UHGV virus genome: UHGV-0383075
Direction: 5' to 3' (one strand)
From: a virus
Length of the DNA stretch: 10,197 nt
Shown here: positions 6,485 through 10,197 of the stretch, in pieces
How the letters are laid out: each line of letters opens with the position of its first letter
Numbering within the stretch: position 1 is the stretch's first letter
Notes under the pieces: generated by a model
What the model saw: only the letters and a program-made list of their open reading frames with translations
Told to the model about the DNA's origin: nothing
Databases searched by the model: none
Position numbers and translations under genes: made by a program

Positions 6485-6733
6485 TTAGTGAACAAACCAC
6501 TCGTCAGCAGATTCCCAGGTATCTTTCAGAGTCTCCTGAACAAAAGTTTTTGCAGAATCCTTATCTGCGGTGCGTGTAACAGAAAGGCCATCGTTGCTGG
6601 TGGCTTTTACGATCACCTCTACATCGTCATAACGTTTACTGATGCGTCGGGTTAATTCTTCCTTTAACGCATCCACAGCACCGGTTGGCATTTTAGTCAT
6701 TTTTTCTTTGGCTATGCAGATTTCAATACGCAT
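6485..6733 (-). CDS. dinI: DinI-family DNA damage-inducible protein
   Basis: 82-aa ORF beginning MRIE.CIAK...GA.DAL..EL.RRI and ending [16 protein letters not shown], which closely parallels E. coli DinI (about 81 aa) as I recall it. GAGGGA RBS 5 nt upstream of the ATG, with LexA boxes directly upstream. Confidence 0.85.
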
Positions 6734-6768: not shown

Positions 6769-6798
6769 ATTTTTAACTGTATGGATAAACAGTGTCAA
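6769..6798 (-). promoter_or_regulatory. Candidate sigma70 promoter of the dinI-like gene
   Basis: On the minus strand there is a consensus -35 TTGACA (complement of 6793-6798, overlapping the int stop codon), a 17-18 nt spacer containing LexA box 2, then an A/T-rich -10 (TAAAAA/AAAAAT, about 6769-6775), followed directly by LexA box 1. Confidence 0.45.
6776..6795 (-). promoter_or_regulatory. LexA box 2 (SOS operator) abutting the int stop codon
   Basis: AACTGT-ATGGATAA-ACAGTG, again CTGT-N8-ACAG, 9 bp from box 1. It lies in the spacer of the candidate dinI promoter. Confidence 0.55.
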
Positions 6799-7892
6799 GA
6801 GGTCTTATTTCTGCTCCTTTGGAGCTCTTCAAAACGATTATGTAAAGATTTCGGATACAGTTCGGTATATACCTGCCATAGCACGTTTAATGAACGATGC
6901 CCTGTAACCTGGGCGACTTCCTCAATACTAAAACCAGCCTCAAATAAGCGACTTGCCCCTTCTCTACGCAAATCATGGTATCGCAGATCTTTAATACCTA
7001 ATTTGCTTCTTACCCTCTGGAATCCCGCAGTAACAGAAGTGCTGTTATATGGAAAAATGAATTCTGATTTTTTGGGTTGTCGTTGGACGATATCCCAGGC
7101 TTCCCCAAGCAAGGCTACTTTCATATGGTTGCCTTCCTTTTTACGTGGATCTTTCCTGTCTCTTACGAGTATGGATTTTTGTTCCTGATCGAGATCCTCC
7201 CATCGTAATCGGCATACTTCACCGATTCGCATACATGACCACACAGAAAATTTGAGGATATCAACGAACGGAATTTTTGAGCATTTATGTGTAGATCGTT
7301 GTTGAAGACCTTCAATGAGCATGTCCAGTTCATCAGATGCCGGTCTACGATTACGACGATTTGATTTACCAATTAAACCAAGTTTAAGTAGATATGGACG
7401 AGCGGCTTTTGCTGGGTTTGATGTGTAATTAATTCCATATACAGGTTTGGCAGCATCCAGAACACTGCCAAGATAACTAACATCGTGGCTAACTGTAGCT
7501 GGACCTGCACCAGCGTTGTTTCTTAGCCTGCAATGTTCAATTACGTCATTTTCTGTCAGTTCAGATAGTTTGATCGCGGAGATGTCACTATCCATAAGCA
7601 GTTCCAGCACATATCTTTTAGTACGGCCTGCTTTACCTCCGGCATTTGGGTCATTTAAATATTTGTGTAGTAAGTCACGGACTGTAAGTCCGTCAACTGC
7701 ATTTGATGATGGAATGCCATATAGATCTAATTCCATCACTTTCTGTGTGCCCCATGTTTTGGCATGAGCATGTTTAGGGAATGTTTTGCTTTCCCTGTAA
7801 GTGATAACACCTTTTTCTTTGATAATCACATTACAGCGATAGCGTGGTGTGCCATCGGATTTTAGTCGTTTCTCTATGTTATAGTACGCCAT
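6795..7892 (-). CDS. int: Tyrosine-type site-specific integrase with N-terminal arm-type DNA-binding domain
   Basis: 365-aa ORF with GAGG RBS 7 nt upstream of the ATG. C-terminal catalytic signatures are present: ...RIGEVCRLRWEDLD..., ...LRYHDLRREGASRL..., ...GHRSLNVLWQVYTELY. The N-terminal stretch IEKRLKSDGTPRYRCNVIIKEKGV..SKTFPKHAHAKTWGTQ resembles the arm-binding domain of phage and island integrases. Confidence 0.85.
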   Translation of the reverse strand: MAYYNIEKRLKSDGTPRYRCNVIIKEKGVITYRESKTFPKHAHAKTWGTQKVMELDLYGIPSSNAVDGLTVRDLLHKYLNDPNAGGKAGRTKRYVLELLMDSDISAIKLSELTENDVIEHCRLRNNAGAGPATVSHDVSYLGSVLDAAKPVYGINYTSNPAKAARPYLLKLGLIGKSNRRNRRPASDELDMLIEGLQQRSTHKCSKIPFVDILKFSVWSCMRIGEVCRLRWEDLDQEQKSILVRDRKDPRKKEGNHMKVALLGEAWDIVQRQPKKSEFIFPYNSTSVTAGFQRVRSKLGIKDLRYHDLRREGASRLFEAGFSIEEVAQVTGHRSLNVLWQVYTELYPKSLHNRFEELQRSRNKTS

Positions 7893-7948: not shown

Positions 7949-8125
7949 AACGCGAGAAAAATAGCCTGAAATGTTCAAAAATGCACGATAATCATGAAGC
8001 ACAAAAAATTAATCAAACCAGCGTGATGCCTGAAAAAACTGGTGTTTACTGGAATTCTCGGTTTAGCATTGCTCCTATGCTCGATAGGATGTACCGTTTT
8101 TTAAAAACAACTAGTTATACACTTT

Positions 8126-8147
8126 GTGGGAGCCTATTGGGAACCTG
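8126..8147. repeat. GGGAACC repeat cluster B: two direct copies
   Basis: GGGAGCCT (8128-8135) and GGGAACCT (8139-8146). The 10-mer TGGGAACCTG at 8138-8147 is identical to 7928-7937 in cluster A. I did not see this motif elsewhere in the window. Confidence 0.55.
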
Positions 8148-8160
8148 AAGTTTTGCTCTT

Positions 8161-8180
8161 TCTATTCATATCTATTCATA
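8161..8180. repeat. Perfect 10-bp tandem direct repeat TCTATTCATA x2
   Basis: Exact duplication at 8161-8170 and 8171-8180, about 25 bp upstream of the candidate -35 of the toxin operon. Confidence 0.6.
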
Positions 8181-8204: not shown

Positions 8205-8266
8205 ATTGACCAAAAACAACCGCGGTTATAGACTTTGCTCCAAATAGCTAAGGCTATTGCTTAGTA
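8205..8266 (+). promoter_or_regulatory. Candidate promoter and operator-like imperfect palindrome for the 8288-9278 operon
   Basis: -35 TTGACC (8205-8210), 18-nt spacer, -10 TAGACT (8229-8234). Downstream is an imperfect inverted repeat TAgCTAAG (8245-8252) / CTTAGTA (8260-8266), then GAGG RBS (8279-8282) 5 nt before the ATG at 8288. Confidence 0.3.
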
Positions 8267-8287
8267 AGTAAAACAGTTGAGGTTGCC

Positions 8288-8827
8288 ATGAATCCGTTTA
8301 ACGCCATTACTTTTGCTGCATTGTGCGGGCCTCTGGCTTGTCCTGCTGCTATGGCGCAGGAGTTCATCATCCAGCCAGCCCCTGTGATTGCTAAACCTTT
8401 TGAGTACTCTCCTTCTGTTGAGGAATTCTCACGCAGAATGGAAGAGGGTAAGGAGATCTTGCAAAAGTTAACAATTGCAGCAGATGACTACTATATCTGT
8501 TTGATTGATCTTAATAGCCAAGATGCTCGCGAGTTTGTTTCCAAAAACGGGACAGATACGACAGAGGCATGCGAAATGTTCCTGCGTGCTTTTGAAGAAG
8601 AAGTGAAGCGTACAATTGAATCGCCTCTGCCTGAATTTATCAGGTCAGAACTGAAGGTTTACTGGCGTCATATTGCTAAAGCTCGCTCATCTGTCACTCG
8701 CCTTAACAATTACATAAAGAGCATATTTAAAGAAACTGTTACGTTTAGCGGGCGCGCGGATCTTGCTGGAATTGCAGCACTAGCTAGTCACACATCAAAT
8801 AAGCTAAAATCGATGCAATTTCACTAA
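8288..8827 (+). CDS. Hypothetical 179-aa protein, first gene of a two-gene operon with a YafO-like toxin (candidate non-canonical antitoxin or partner)
   Basis: ORF with GAGG RBS and a stop 16 nt before the next start. It has a hydrophobic N-terminus (MNPFNAITFAALCGPLACPAAMA) lacking the basic n-region of a typical signal peptide, then an acidic, probably helical body. I recognise no family, and it is about twice the size of Phd/YefM/YafN-type antitoxins. Confidence 0.5.
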   Translation: MNPFNAITFAALCGPLACPAAMAQEFIIQPAPVIAKPFEYSPSVEEFSRRMEEGKEILQKLTIAADDYYICLIDLNSQDAREFVSKNGTDTTEACEMFLRAFEEEVKRTIESPLPEFIRSELKVYWRHIAKARSSVTRLNNYIKSIFKETVTFSGRADLAGIAALASHTSNKLKSMQFH

Positions 8828-8843
8828 CCGATAGCGGACGACC

Positions 8844-9278
8844 ATGCATCTAGAAGTCTCTATTAATCCAGAAACTAGAGCTGAATTTTTTGATGAAGTT
8901 TTTCTCAAATTCCCGGAGCTAGAGTCTTCTATCATTGATGATTTCAAGAGATACAAAGCAACCGGTGAGCTTCCGCATTATTTCGGTAGGGACGTTGCGT
9001 ATACTCAGCCCTATGGTGCTTTTCGGGCTGGGTTGATGCATATCCATCTTTGTCTACCGCCAAACAAGTTTCCCGAGAAACTTCCACAACCGGATAGGGT
9101 CTGCAAGAAAGGTGATCCTGATAATGATGCTTGTCTTGTGTATGTCCAAGGTGAGCTTTATGAGAATAAATATTCACTCATTGCTATTATGTATCCCGAT
9201 GCACATGAAAAAGCAAGAAAACATGATGTGATGAGCTATCTGGCGCGAATTGCCCAGAATTATAAAGATGAAAACTAA
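8844..9278 (+). CDS. YafO-family toxin homolog (putative ribosome-dependent mRNA interferase)
   Basis: 144-aa ORF. Segments DFKRYKATGELPHYFGRDVAY, MHIHLCLPPNKFPEKL and ACLVYVQGELYENKYSLIAIMYPDAHEKARKHDVM align by eye with E. coli YafO (DFISYKRDGVLPDTFGRD, VAHIHLANENNPFPPQL, AHLVYCQGAFDEQAWLLIAILKPEPHKLARDNNQM, recalled from memory). An intrinsic terminator follows directly. Confidence 0.6.
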   Translation: MHLEVSINPETRAEFFDEVFLKFPELESSIIDDFKRYKATGELPHYFGRDVAYTQPYGAFRAGLMHIHLCLPPNKFPEKLPQPDRVCKKGDPDNDACLVYVQGELYENKYSLIAIMYPDAHEKARKHDVMSYLARIAQNYKDEN

Positions 9279-9298
9279 CCCGCCGAAGCGGGTTTTTT
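9277..9298. terminator. Bidirectional intrinsic terminator between convergent operons
   Basis: Hairpin AACCCGC-CGAA-GCGGGTT (9277-9294) followed by TTTTTT on the plus strand. The minus-strand side is also T-rich downstream (complement of 9260-9276). It lies between the YafO-like stop (9276-9278) and the PrtN-like stop (9305-9307). Confidence 0.7.
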
Positions 9299-9304
9299 GT
9301 GAGA

Positions 9305-9577
9305 TTAGTTATTTATTTTCCTATTTGTTCTTACCCTCTCCCATTCAATTCTGCCTTCTTCACGCCGTTTATCTATATATTCAGCAAGATCCTGAATGTT
9401 GATGCAGCGCTTTGCTTTCTGTGATGTACCAACACGATAAGTCGGGATCGGCAATTGGCATGCATTTGCTTTCGCTTCTGCTGTGTTAGGGCTCATACCG
9501 AAATACTTTTGGCATACAGCTGACAGCTCAATGTTTGGGGTATTGAATTCAGCCATCAGTAAAAACAAGGTGTTCAT
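9305..9577 (-). CDS. PrtN-family (pyocin activator-like) DNA-binding protein; possible excisionase or early regulator
   Basis: N-terminus MNTLFLLMAEF...VCQKYFG...LPIPTYRVGTSQKAKRCINIQDLAEYIDKRREEG matches the PrtN-family pattern (MNT.FLLMAQ...VC..YF...LP.P..R...SQKA....LQDLA.YID.RR) as I recall it. I prefer the ATG at 9577 (GGAG RBS 6 nt upstream) over the GTG at 9604 listed in the ORF track. Confidence 0.6.
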   Translation of the reverse strand: MNTLFLLMAEFNTPNIELSAVCQKYFGMSPNTAEAKANACQLPIPTYRVGTSQKAKRCINIQDLAEYIDKRREEGRIEWERVRTNRKINN

Positions 9578-9613
9578 AATTTTCTCCATCAAAACCGGCT
9601 GCACCCGGGAAAA

Positions 9614-10186
9614 TCATAATTCTGTGCTGGTGGCAGGAATTAGTTTCTGCCAGATAGCGGAAACATATTTTGCCTGATGACGGGCATCAGCCAGGGCGTT
9701 GTGCCGTTCGCCATCGAAAGGCATGTCCATTTTTGGGTCGAATCCGATGGAACGCCCAAGCGTAACGATCGTGCGTACATCGTGGTCATTCCAGTACGCC
9801 CACGGGCAGATTTGTCCTGCTCGCTCGTAAGCTCCACGTAAAATTACGTTGTCGAAGGTGGCCCCGTTACCCCAGACTTTTAAATATTTTGTATTGTCTG
9901 CATGCTGATTAATGAAATGGCTCAGTTCAGAGAGTGCATCGCTGATCGACAAAGTATCATCAATACAGATTGCAGCTCGTGCTTCAGAGCTCTGTTTCAA
10001 CCACCACAGGATGGTATCGCCGTCAGGTGTAGCTCCTTGCTTCATAGCACTGTCCAGGCTAACAACCGTATAGAATTCTTGTCCGATGTCTCCGGTTTCT
10101 GGAGTGAAGAACACCGCGCCAATGGAAACGATCGGTGCATCCTTATTTTTCCCCATCGTCTCAAGGTCGATCATTAAGTTGTTCAT
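9614..10186 (-). CDS. DEDDh-type 3'-5' exonuclease (DnaQ-like fold), phage early-region exonuclease
   Basis: Exo I motif MIDLETMG (D-x-E), Exo II region VWGNGATFDNVIL, Exo III motif HNALADARH. GAGGTG RBS at 10192-10197. The ATG at 10186 is the likely start; the track's 10189 is a GTG one codon upstream. Confidence 0.65.
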   Translation of the reverse strand: MNNLMIDLETMGKNKDAPIVSIGAVFFTPETGDIGQEFYTVVSLDSAMKQGATPDGDTILWWLKQSSEARAAICIDDTLSISDALSELSHFINQHADNTKYLKVWGNGATFDNVILRGAYERAGQICPWAYWNDHDVRTIVTLGRSIGFDPKMDMPFDGERHNALADARHQAKYVSAIWQKLIPATSTEL

Positions 10187-10197
10187 CACTTCACCTC

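What the first reader, a model, noticed from the sequence alone, without database searches (positions are those of the whole stretch)
8288..9278. Two-gene operon: YafO-family toxin paired with an unrecognised 179-aa partner instead of a small YafN/Phd-type antitoxin
The downstream gene (8844-9278) has clear by-eye similarity to the YafO toxin over three conserved blocks. Canonical yafNO has a roughly 95-aa Phd/YefM-fold antitoxin upstream. Here the upstream gene encodes a 179-aa acidic protein with a hydrophobic N-terminus that resembles no antitoxin family I know. The pair is separated by 16 nt, has its own promoter-like elements and an operator-like palindrome, and ends at a strong terminator. 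It sits in AT-rich cargo DNA between an integrase and the early PrtN/exonuclease genes, a position where temperate phages often carry defence or addiction modules. This could be a new toxin-antitoxin or abortive-infection pairing.
Basis: partly seen in the sequence, partly recalled or inferred. Interest (0 to 1): 0.8.

Follow-up and report, generated by a model that had tools for sequence, protein, structure and literature searches.

The report
Phage YafO toxin with signal-peptide partner
A temperate phage carries a small two-gene cassette in which a YafO-type RNA-cutting toxin always follows an unannotated helical protein that looks exported, so the presumed antidote would leave the compartment where the toxin acts.

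Summary
Window 8288-8827 encodes a 179-aa protein (A). Sixteen nt downstream, 8844-9278 encodes a 144-aa YafO-family protein (T; Pfam PF13957, E=2e-21). The pair has a sigma-70-like promoter, an inverted repeat just after the -10 and a terminator.

A is unrelated to YafN/Phd and matches no Pfam, NCBIfam or PADLOC family. It belongs to a very small family (23 representatives among 1.84 billion proteins). Every member examined is followed by a YafO-clade gene 2-21 nt downstream. Every phage-borne toxin of this clade with readable upstream DNA has an A-type partner. This holds in E. coli, Salmonella, Pantoea, Serratia, Photorhabdus and Pseudomonas aeruginosa phages, at unrelated genome positions.

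The "hydrophobic N-terminus" has the pattern of a Sec signal peptide: K/R, a hydrophobic run of about 12 residues, Pro, then Ala-x-Ala. The pattern persists across the family while the sequence changes. A variable linker and an acidic helical bundle follow.

The cassette is therefore a conserved phage moron that looks like a toxin-antidote or abortive-infection module, but its partner breaks the type II antitoxin pattern. How an exported protein would restrain a cytoplasmic RNase is unresolved. No experiment exists. I rate it a new variant of a known kind, of moderately high interest.

The parts
8206..8234 (+). sigma-70-like promoter (TTGACC, 17 nt, TAGACT)
   Evidence: Consensus scan. Homologous -35/-10 elements lie at the same distance from the partner gene in Phytobacter, Enterobacter and Pantoea copies. 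It is a consensus match only; the transcription start is not mapped.
8243..8258 (.). inverted repeat AATAGC-taag-GCTATT, 9 nt after the -10, at about the predicted transcript 5' end
   Evidence: The arms change in concert in related cassettes (GATAAC/GTTATC, CTATAGC/GCTATAG, TAAGC/GCTTA), and unrelated inverted repeats occupy the same position in remote clades. Operator versus 5' mRNA hairpin is undecided.
8279..8282 (+). Shine-Dalgarno GAGG, 5 nt before the partner gene start
   Evidence: Read from the sequence. GAGGT is conserved in front of the ATG in all close homologues.
8288..8827 (+). partner gene A (179 aa): signal-peptide-like N-terminus, variable linker, helical bundle
   Evidence: ORF. 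PHROG 8416 only. AF2 pLDDT 80, helices 44-175. Family of 22-23 clusters.
8288..8356 (+). codons 1-23 of A: Sec-type signal-peptide-like segment (MNPFNAITFAALCGPLACPAAMA, predicted cleavage before QEF)
   Evidence: The n-h-c pattern with Pro at -5 and Ala-x-Ala at -3/-1 is shared by the family. It is under protein-level constraint, shown by synonymous changes. No dedicated predictor was available.
8844..9278 (+). toxin gene T (144 aa), YafO family
   Evidence: Pfam PF13957 E=1.9e-21. 36% identity to K-12 YafO. HIH, LVYxQ and PxxH..R motifs conserved. AF2 pLDDT 95. Best PDB fold matches are HigB2, HigB1, YafQ, RelE and ParE.
9277..9294 (.). bidirectional intrinsic terminator shared with the convergent PrtN/excisionase-like gene
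   Evidence: 7-bp GC-rich stem, 4-nt loop, T-runs on both strands.

Best explanation
The region is a self-contained, horizontally mobile two-gene cassette that temperate phages carry as a lysogen-expressed accessory module.

T is a YafO-type (RelE/ParE-superfamily) mRNA endonuclease that keeps the family's conserved motifs, so it is probably active and toxic.

A is the dedicated partner of this toxin clade. It belongs to a small unannotated family with three parts: a Sec-type signal peptide, a length-variable linker and a mostly acidic helical bundle. It has no DNA-binding domain.

I take A to be T's cognate antidote or controller. It is translated first and more efficiently: it has a strong SD, whereas T has a weak SD, often a GTG start, and lies 2-21 nt downstream.

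Because A carries an export signal, it could meet T only as a precursor in the cytoplasm or at the inner membrane. My proposed mechanism is that export, rather than proteolysis, makes the antidote short-lived. When synthesis stops, through phage-induced shut-off or loss of the element, the precursor pool drains. T is then freed, cleaves mRNA and arrests the cell, giving abortive infection or addiction.

Shown: the anatomy, the family assignments, the strict linkage, the co-divergence and the signal-peptide-like pattern.

Inferred: toxicity of T, neutralisation by A, actual export, the trigger and the defence role.
For: - Toxin identity: Pfam YafO above threshold. Motifs shared with K-12 YafO. 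Confident model whose best PDB matches are RelE-superfamily toxins.
- Linkage, A to T: every A homologue examined has a PF13957 gene 2-21 nt downstream.
- Linkage, T to A: 33 of 33 more distant viral loci, and every closer locus with upstream DNA, have an A-family partner.
- Context hopping. The cassette is found at a dusA-proximal prophage end. It is found between the tail tube/chaperone and tape-measure genes next to arc/ant genes. It is found inside a baseplate cluster and downstream of CI-like repressors. It is also found in a non-phage chromosomal site.
- Co-divergence: Spearman 0.84 between A and T identities, and A diverges faster than T in 99% of comparisons. Antitoxins are generally held to evolve faster than their toxins (my own knowledge, not tested here).
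- No other antidote candidate: no tandem repeats or Rfam RNA, and the spacer is too short for another gene.
- In 52 E. coli genomes with a match I saw no toxin-only copy; the cassette is complete in 48.
- Signal-peptide pattern. A crude rule that flags it mostly picks genuine exported proteins among 105 background ORFs.
- No DNA-binding or known antitoxin domain.
Against: - An exported protein and a cytoplasmic RNase would occupy different compartments, and I know of no type II antitoxin with a signal peptide.
- Export was inferred with a home-made heuristic, not a validated predictor.
- This window's clade lacks the usual K/R in the n-region.
- In the close clade the N-terminal 32 residues are more conserved (78%) than the toxin (73%). 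That is odd for a mere export signal.
- Neither protein matches any PADLOC defence model.
- The family is absent from 72,556 plasmids, where addiction modules usually abound.
- No experimental data were found for this clade.
Confidence: 0.42

Rival explanations
1. Two-compartment module without direct A-T binding. A is genuinely exported and works in the periplasm or envelope, for example in superinfection exclusion or as an envelope sensor. T is a cytoplasmic effector restrained in some other way, such as low expression, intrinsic inactivity until triggered, or a host factor. The genes travel together because the two activities complement each other.
For: The signal-peptide pattern is conserved across the whole family while the sequence is not. 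The hydrophobic run (median 12 residues, maximum 19) is too short for a membrane anchor. A variable linker is followed by a folded bundle. The cassette sits in lysogen-expressed moron and immunity regions where exclusion genes live. T has a weak SD or a GTG start.
Against: Strict adjacency with 2-21 nt spacing persists down to 38% toxin identity, with tight co-divergence. That is more than expected for functionally separable genes. A YafO-type RNase with intact motifs, co-transcribed from a constitutive-looking promoter, would need an antidote, and none other is conserved. A soluble periplasmic protein has no evident way to signal to the cytoplasm.
Confidence: 0.25
2. A conventional cytoplasmic type II toxin-antitoxin pair with a new antitoxin fold. 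The hydrophobic N-terminus is not an export signal. It would be a toxin-binding helix or a built-in protease degron. The palindrome would be the operator bound by the A-T complex.
For: The gene order, spacing and expression signals fit the classical pattern. An inverted repeat overlaps the predicted transcription start, and its arms co-vary between loci. The N-terminal 32 residues are the most conserved part of A in the close clade. This clade has no K/R in the n-region.
Against: In remote homologues the N-terminus shares only the n-h-c physico-chemical pattern, including Pro near -5/-6 and Ala-x-Ala, while the toxin stays 50-66% identical. That is how signal peptides evolve, not how binding helices evolve. 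No DNA-binding domain is detectable and the bundle is acidic. Inverted repeats in other clades are unrelated in sequence, which fits an RNA hairpin as well.
Confidence: 0.2
3. Not a toxin system. T would be a domesticated or regulatory RNase, or inactive. The pair would serve the phage's own biology, for example host mRNA turnover or envelope remodelling.
For: No experimental toxicity data exist for this clade. T is near-neutral or acidic, which I consider unusual for ribosome-binding RelE-type toxins (my own knowledge, not tested). The cassette is absent from plasmids.
Against: Residues invariant across the family, including K-12 YafO, are retained. The cassette has its own promoter and terminator, and moves between unrelated phage positions and a non-phage site. 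That is moron or toxin-antitoxin behaviour, not core phage function.
Confidence: 0.08

Closest known systems
E. coli K-12 yafN-yafO (type II toxin-antitoxin in the dinB operon)
   Same: The toxin belongs to the same Pfam family (PF13957), with 36% identity and shared HIH, LVYxQ and PxxH..R motifs. The partner-first gene order and tight spacing are also shared.
   Different: The partner is 179 aa, all-helical and signal-peptide-bearing, and unrelated to the 97-aa Phd/YefM-type YafN. The toxin scores below the NCBIfam YafO equivalog cut-off (75.8 against 153 bits) and has about 12 extra N-terminal residues. The cassette is phage-borne, whereas a close-relative pattern scan for K-12-type YafO found none in IMG/VR.
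ToxM, a BECR-fold toxin fused to a transmembrane and periplasmic domain (Gerdes 2025, PMC11980606)
   Same: A RelE/ParE-superfamily toxin module with a component predicted to reach the membrane or periplasm. [quoted passage not shown]
   Different: In ToxM the toxin itself carries the membrane and periplasmic parts, and the antitoxin is cytoplasmic. Here the toxin is a plain soluble protein, and the partner carries a cleavable-looking signal peptide.
Lambda rexA-rexB (lysogen-expressed two-gene abortive-infection module next to cI)
   Same: A two-gene prophage module in immunity or moron regions, with one envelope-directed and one cytoplasmic protein. In Pseudomonas and other phages the cassette lies downstream of a CI-like repressor. 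The RexAB comparison rests on my own knowledge, not on a test here.
   Different: There is no sequence or fold relationship. RexB is a polytopic membrane protein and RexA is not an RNase. Neither A nor T matches any PADLOC model at E<=1.
SecM-SecA type export-monitoring upstream ORFs
   Same: An upstream ORF of about 170-180 aa with a signal peptide lies immediately before a gene whose output must be controlled. This is an analogy from memory only and suggested the export-coupled idea.
   Different: A is a well-folded, conserved helical domain (pLDDT about 90 over residues 50-150). No arrest motif was identified and nothing was tested.

Membership tests
YafO toxin family (Pfam PF13957) | Match to the family HMM above the curated gathering score | tested here: met
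   76.5 bits against a cut-off of 25, E=1.9e-21, covering profile positions 1-100 of 101.
YafO toxin family (Pfam PF13957) | Orthology to E. coli K-12 YafO (NCBIfam equivalog PRK09885) | tested here: not met
   75.8 bits against a cut-off of 153. 36% identity. It is a family member, not an equivalog.
YafO toxin family (Pfam PF13957) | RelE/ParE (BECR) fold | tested here: inconclusive
   AF2 model pLDDT 95. The best PDB Foldseek matches are HigB2, HigB1, YafQ, RelE and ParE, but E is only 0.018-4 and TM is 0.33-0.57. No YafO structure has been solved.
YafO toxin family (Pfam PF13957) | mRNA cleavage and growth arrest when expressed alone | not testable with these tools
   Needs expression and RNA-end mapping. 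Only conservation of invariant residues is shown.
Type II toxin-antitoxin module | Bicistronic operon, partner first, short or overlapping spacer, mobile as a unit | tested here: met
   16-nt spacer here and 2-21 nt elsewhere. Own promoter and terminator. At least five unrelated genomic contexts.
Type II toxin-antitoxin module | Antitoxin with a DNA-binding domain (RHH, HTH, Phd/YefM, AbrB) for autoregulation | tested here: not met
   No Pfam or NCBIfam domain in A or in 31 family members. hhalign against YafN gives probability 3%. Only generic helical-bundle fold matches.
Type II toxin-antitoxin module | Cytoplasmic protein antitoxin that binds and neutralises the toxin | not testable with these tools
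The signal-peptide-like N-terminus argues against a purely cytoplasmic partner.
Type II toxin-antitoxin module | Operator palindrome at the promoter | tested here: inconclusive
   An inverted repeat lies at 8243-8258 just after the -10, with co-varying arms. It could equally be a 5' mRNA hairpin, and no binding protein is identified.
YafN / Phd-YefM antitoxins | Sequence or profile similarity to YafN | tested here: not met
   hhalign probability 3%. No Pfam PhdYeFM hit.
Sec (signal peptidase I) exported proteins | n-region, hydrophobic core of 7-15 residues, helix breaker, small residues at -3 and -1 | tested here: met
   A heuristic places a compliant site after residue 23 in almost all close and mid-range members. 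Median uncharged run is 12 residues. 20 of 31 members have K/R in the n-region, but this window's clade has none. It is a crude rule, not SignalP.
Sec (signal peptidase I) exported proteins | Actual export and cleavage | not testable with these tools
   Needs PhoA fusions, fractionation or N-terminal sequencing.
Bacterial lipoproteins | Lipobox [LVI][ASTVI][GAS]C | tested here: not met
   Cys13 is preceded by A-A-L, and Cys18 is replaced by Gln in most homologues. There is no consistent lipobox in the family.
Known anti-phage defence systems (PADLOC-DB 2.0) | Match to any component model | tested here: not met
   No hit for A or T at E<=1.

The most novel reading that the evidence does not exclude
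An export-coupled toxin switch. The antidote of a cytoplasmic RelE-superfamily RNase is a Sec substrate, so its residence time in the cytoplasm sets toxin activity. That residence time depends on ongoing synthesis and on Sec and proton-motive-force status. The prophage module would then fire when an infecting phage shuts off host expression or perturbs the membrane. The unusually conserved signal segment of the enterobacterial clade would double as the toxin-contacting or rate-tuning element. This would be a new way of making an antitoxin labile, and the first toxin-antitoxin pair with an exported antitoxin.
Probability: 0.18. Interest if true: 0.85.

Novelty: new variant of a known kind. Interest (0 to 1): 0.62.

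Why it matters
YafO-type toxins in prophages are routinely reported as orphan toxins. One example is the P. aeruginosa prophage vB_PaeS-D14C in PMC10449497. Its upstream 'hypothetical protein' belongs to this partner family.

Recognising the conserved partner turns these orphans into a defined two-gene module. The module occurs in about 1% of complete E. coli genomes and in Salmonella, Citrobacter, Pantoea, Serratia, Photorhabdus and Pseudomonas phages.

If the partner really is exported and still controls the toxin, it breaks the rule that type II antitoxins are cytoplasmic, protease-labile DNA binders. It would also link toxin activation to the secretion machinery or envelope state.

If the partner does not control the toxin, the cassette is a case of a RelE-family RNase kept silent without a recognisable antidote.

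Either outcome can be reached with simple kill-rescue, localisation and phage-plating experiments.

Tried and rejected
- Complex prediction: I built 15 paired A-linker-T sequences (alignment A2).
- The afdb50 fold library was unavailable.
- A PDB sequence search with the A profile gave nothing significant (EnvC at E=0.27).
- RNA antitoxin (type I or III): no tandem repeats in or beside the cassette apart from a 2x10-nt repeat at 8161-8180, and no Rfam match (isrK at E=0.19, far below threshold). Rejected.
- Lipoprotein reading of Cys13 or Cys18: no lipobox. Rejected.
- Uncleaved transmembrane anchor: the hydrophobic runs (median 12 residues) are too short. Disfavoured.
- Alternative start at Met22: the upstream codons show synonymous variation with conserved amino acids, and a conserved GAGGT precedes ATG1. 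Rejected.
- A-T fusion by read-through or frameshift: spacer lengths vary in frame between loci. Rejected.
- Plasmid carriage: no tblastn hit for A in PLSDB.
- K-12-type YafO in viral contigs: none found with close-relative patterns.
- Literature: searches for YafO with 'signal peptide', 'periplasmic antitoxin', YafM and dusA prophage toxin-antitoxin systems found no study of this pair. The Photorhabdus toxin-antitoxin survey (PMC13617665) lists YafO as a toxin class, but its tables are not held as text, so I could not see whether this partner was tested.
Full report
WHAT IS THERE

The window carries two same-strand ORFs exactly as reported. A is at 8288-8827 (179 aa). T is at 8844-9278 (144 aa), 16 nt further on.

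- Upstream lie a sigma-70-like promoter (TTGACC-17-TAGACT, 8206-8234) and a 6+6 inverted repeat (AATAGC-taag-GCTATT, 8243-8258) at about the expected transcript start.
- A strong GAGG sits 5 nt before the A start codon.
- A 7-bp GC-rich hairpin with T-runs on both strands (9277-9294) ends the unit. It is shared with the convergent PrtN-family gene.
- T has no comparable Shine-Dalgarno here and starts with GTG in many relatives.
- GC is about 0.42-0.46 against about 0.52 in the adjacent tail genes.

THE TOXIN

- T matches Pfam YafO_toxin (PF13957) at 76.5 bits against a cut-off of 25.
- It does not reach the NCBIfam equivalog score for K-12 YafO (75.8 against 153 bits).
- It is 36% identical to K-12 YafO over 117 residues.
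- An alignment spanning this clade and K-12 YafO keeps F34, Y37, L43-P44, F47-G48, D50, H66-I67-H68, L98-V99-Y100, Q102, E107, P118, H121 and R125 invariant.
- AlphaFold gives a very confident model (pLDDT 95). Its best PDB matches are HigB2, HigB1, YafQ, RelE and ParE, though with weak statistics (E from 0.018, TM 0.33-0.57).
- No YafO-family structure has been solved.

I therefore treat T as a genuine, probably active member of the YafO branch of the RelE/ParE superfamily. It is not the K-12 orthologue.

THE PARTNER

- A has no significant match in Pfam, NCBIfam or PADLOC. Its only hit is PHROG 8416, 'unknown function'.
- It shows no relationship to YafN (hhalign probability 3%) or to any solved structure by sequence.
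- The word-indexed search of 5.8 billion proteins found 22 clusters, all from Enterobacterales.
- A full profile search of 1.84 billion representatives found only 23. The family is very small.
- AlphaFold (pLDDT 80) predicts an N-terminal helix (residues 6-24, pLDDT 60-70), a low-confidence linker, and a bundle of long helices (44-175, pLDDT about 85-93).
- Scanning 31 diverse members against Pfam gives no recurrent family.

THE N-TERMINUS LOOKS LIKE A SIGNAL PEPTIDE

In this window the N-terminus reads MNPFN-AITFAALCGPLA-CPAAMA|QEF.

Mid-range and remote homologues have different sequences but the same plan:
- a short n-region with K/R in 20 of 31 members;
- an uncharged hydrophobic run of median 12 residues (maximum 19);
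- a Pro about five or six residues before a small-x-small motif, most often A-x-A, followed by Q, E or D.

Examples are MKTTLSICAAALSMALSSPNVLA|RE, MRTIIAATVTALGIHLAQPAALA|HE, MKMNPLLKHCFAAILSGGILSVPSYSLA|DV and MARTKIPFSKVAMLSLALSVSTSCAQLAAA|TP.

The hydrophobic runs are too short for a transmembrane anchor, and there is no lipobox.

I applied a crude rule (hydrophobic window plus the -3/-1 rule) to 105 long background ORFs from the fetched loci. Besides the family, it flagged nine proteins. At least six of these are obvious exported or membrane proteins: an outer-membrane factor, a porin, lipoproteins and an MFS transporter.

The segment is translated and under protein-level selection. Codons 1-33 show abundant synonymous variation with conserved residues, and GAGGT precedes ATG1 in all close copies.

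Caveats:
- No validated predictor was available.
- This window's clade lacks K/R in the n-region.
- Within that clade the first 32 residues are more conserved (78% mean pairwise identity) than the toxin (73%), the helical domain (54%) or the linker (22%). That hints at a sequence-specific role beyond export.

LINKAGE

Every A-family gene I could place is followed by a PF13957 gene 2-21 nt downstream:
- four species genomes: Phytobacter, Enterobacter, Pantoea and Candidatus Pantoea multigeneris;
- Serratia and metagenomic contigs;
- two of the most remote family members.

The reverse also holds. All IMG/VR loci holding a toxin of this clade with upstream DNA available carry an A-family gene. 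This covers the loci and 33 of 33 more distant loci, with hmmsearch E from 1e-15 to 1e-79. The Photorhabdus copies carry a 186-aa ORF 3 nt upstream of the toxin, which I did not score against the A profile.

A and T identities co-vary (Spearman 0.84 over 105 comparisons), and A is the faster-evolving partner in 99% of them.

The cassette occupies unrelated positions:
- the dusA-proximal prophage end in E. coli;
- an arc/ant-type island between the tail tube/chaperone and tape-measure genes;
- inside a baseplate cluster in Photorhabdus;
- downstream of CI-like repressors in Pseudomonas and other phages;
- a non-phage chromosomal site.

Fifty-two of 5,426 complete E. coli genomes match the cassette. 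It is complete in 48, at 99.4% identity or more, and I saw no toxin-only copy. The exact A protein occurs on at least 1,000 contigs from E. coli, Salmonella, Citrobacter and E. albertii, always as 'hypothetical protein'. A has no tblastn match in PLSDB plasmids.

REGULATORY ELEMENTS

In the Escherichia, Enterobacter and Pantoea clade, the promoter hexamers and an inverted repeat 42-50 nt before the ATG are conserved in position. The repeat arms change in concert (AATAGC/GCTATT, GATAAC/GTTATC, CTATAGC/GCTATAG, TAAGC/GCTTA). Other clades have unrelated inverted repeats at similar distances.

This fits either an operator with co-evolving half-sites or a 5'-terminal mRNA hairpin. A has no DNA-binding domain, is mostly acidic and looks exported. 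I therefore lean towards the hairpin, but this is inference.

INTERPRETATION

A YafO-type RNase with intact motifs, co-transcribed from a constitutive-looking promoter in a lysogen, needs restraint. The only conserved neighbour is A, and there is no sign of an RNA antitoxin. The gene order, spacing, translation signals, faster partner evolution and cassette mobility are those of a toxin-antidote module.

I therefore commit to A being T's cognate controller (confidence about 0.4). The signal peptide forces a non-standard mechanism: contact as a precursor or at the membrane, with export possibly supplying the lability that proteolysis supplies in classical systems.

The main rivals are:
- a two-compartment module without direct binding (0.25);
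- a conventional cytoplasmic pair whose N-terminus is not an export signal (0.2);
- a non-toxic function (0.08).

COMPARISON WITH WHAT IS KNOWN

- yafNO of E. coli K-12 shares the toxin family but not the partner.
- A 2025 survey of RelE/ParE toxins lists YafO (about 1K sequences, antitoxin-first order). It presents ToxM, a toxin fused to membrane and periplasmic domains, as the first possible membrane-associated type II toxin-antitoxin complex. It does not describe a signal-peptide-bearing partner (PMC11980606).
- Reports of 'orphan' YafO toxins in P. aeruginosa prophages (PMC10449497) concern this module. Phage vB_PaeS-D14C carries an A-family 'hypothetical protein'.
- Automatic annotation has labelled the pair 'YafM antitoxin / YafO toxin' in GenBank PV340560.1, and 'YafO/YafM' appears in a Pectobacterium genomics paper (PMC10991766). 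This appears to be guilt by association. I found no experimental or analytical study.

VERDICT

The cassette is a real, conserved, phage-borne YafO module. Its obligate partner is a new, apparently exported protein family. I rate it a new variant of a known kind. Interest is moderately high because it conflicts with the standard picture of type II antitoxins and can be tested directly.

Noticed in passing
window 7981-8148 (+), with the integrase at 6795-7892 (-): A phage-borne copy of the 5' end of dusA (attP region of a dusA-integrating phage) lies between the integrase and the cassette. In lysogens the host dusA 5' stub, A and T lie on one strand, so the host dusA promoter reads towards the cassette. 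The window itself shows the excised, circular or tandem junction. One chicken E. coli chromosome has the same junction.
   Followed up: partly
window 8161-8180: A perfect direct repeat, TCTATTCATA x2, lies between the dusA fragment and the cassette promoter. It may be an integrase arm-type or IHF-type site. It was not examined further.
   Followed up: no
window 9305-9604 (-): The 'PrtN pyocin activator' family ORF (Pfam E=4e-24) matches PHROG 1300, annotated as excisionase (E=2.5e-40). It sits next to the att end, so it is more likely the phage excisionase than a pyocin regulator.
   Followed up: partly
window 8288-8383 (A residues 1-32) and homologues: In the enterobacterial clade the signal-peptide-like N-terminus plus the following QEFIxQPAP is more conserved (78%) than the toxin (73%) and lacks the usual K/R. 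This is unusual for a plain export signal.
   Followed up: partly
window 8822-8827 (A C-terminus) and homologues: The last residue of the partner is an invariant His (..F/L-H-stop) in most of the family, 8-16 nt before the toxin start codon. The reason is unknown.
   Followed up: no
[not shown]
   Followed up: partly
L007 6001-7004; L064 4001-5022; L149 2437-3438; L147 3501-4492: The same cassette is inserted in an arc/ant (immI-like) island between tail and tape-measure genes, inside a Photorhabdus baseplate cluster, and downstream of a CI-like repressor in Pseudomonas phages. These are classic moron positions.
   Followed up: partly
window 6485-6733 (-) and 9614-10189 (-): A DinI-like gene lies next to the integrase. 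An Rv2179c-like 3'-5' exonuclease (Pfam E=8e-76) lies at the start of the early leftward genes.
   Followed up: no
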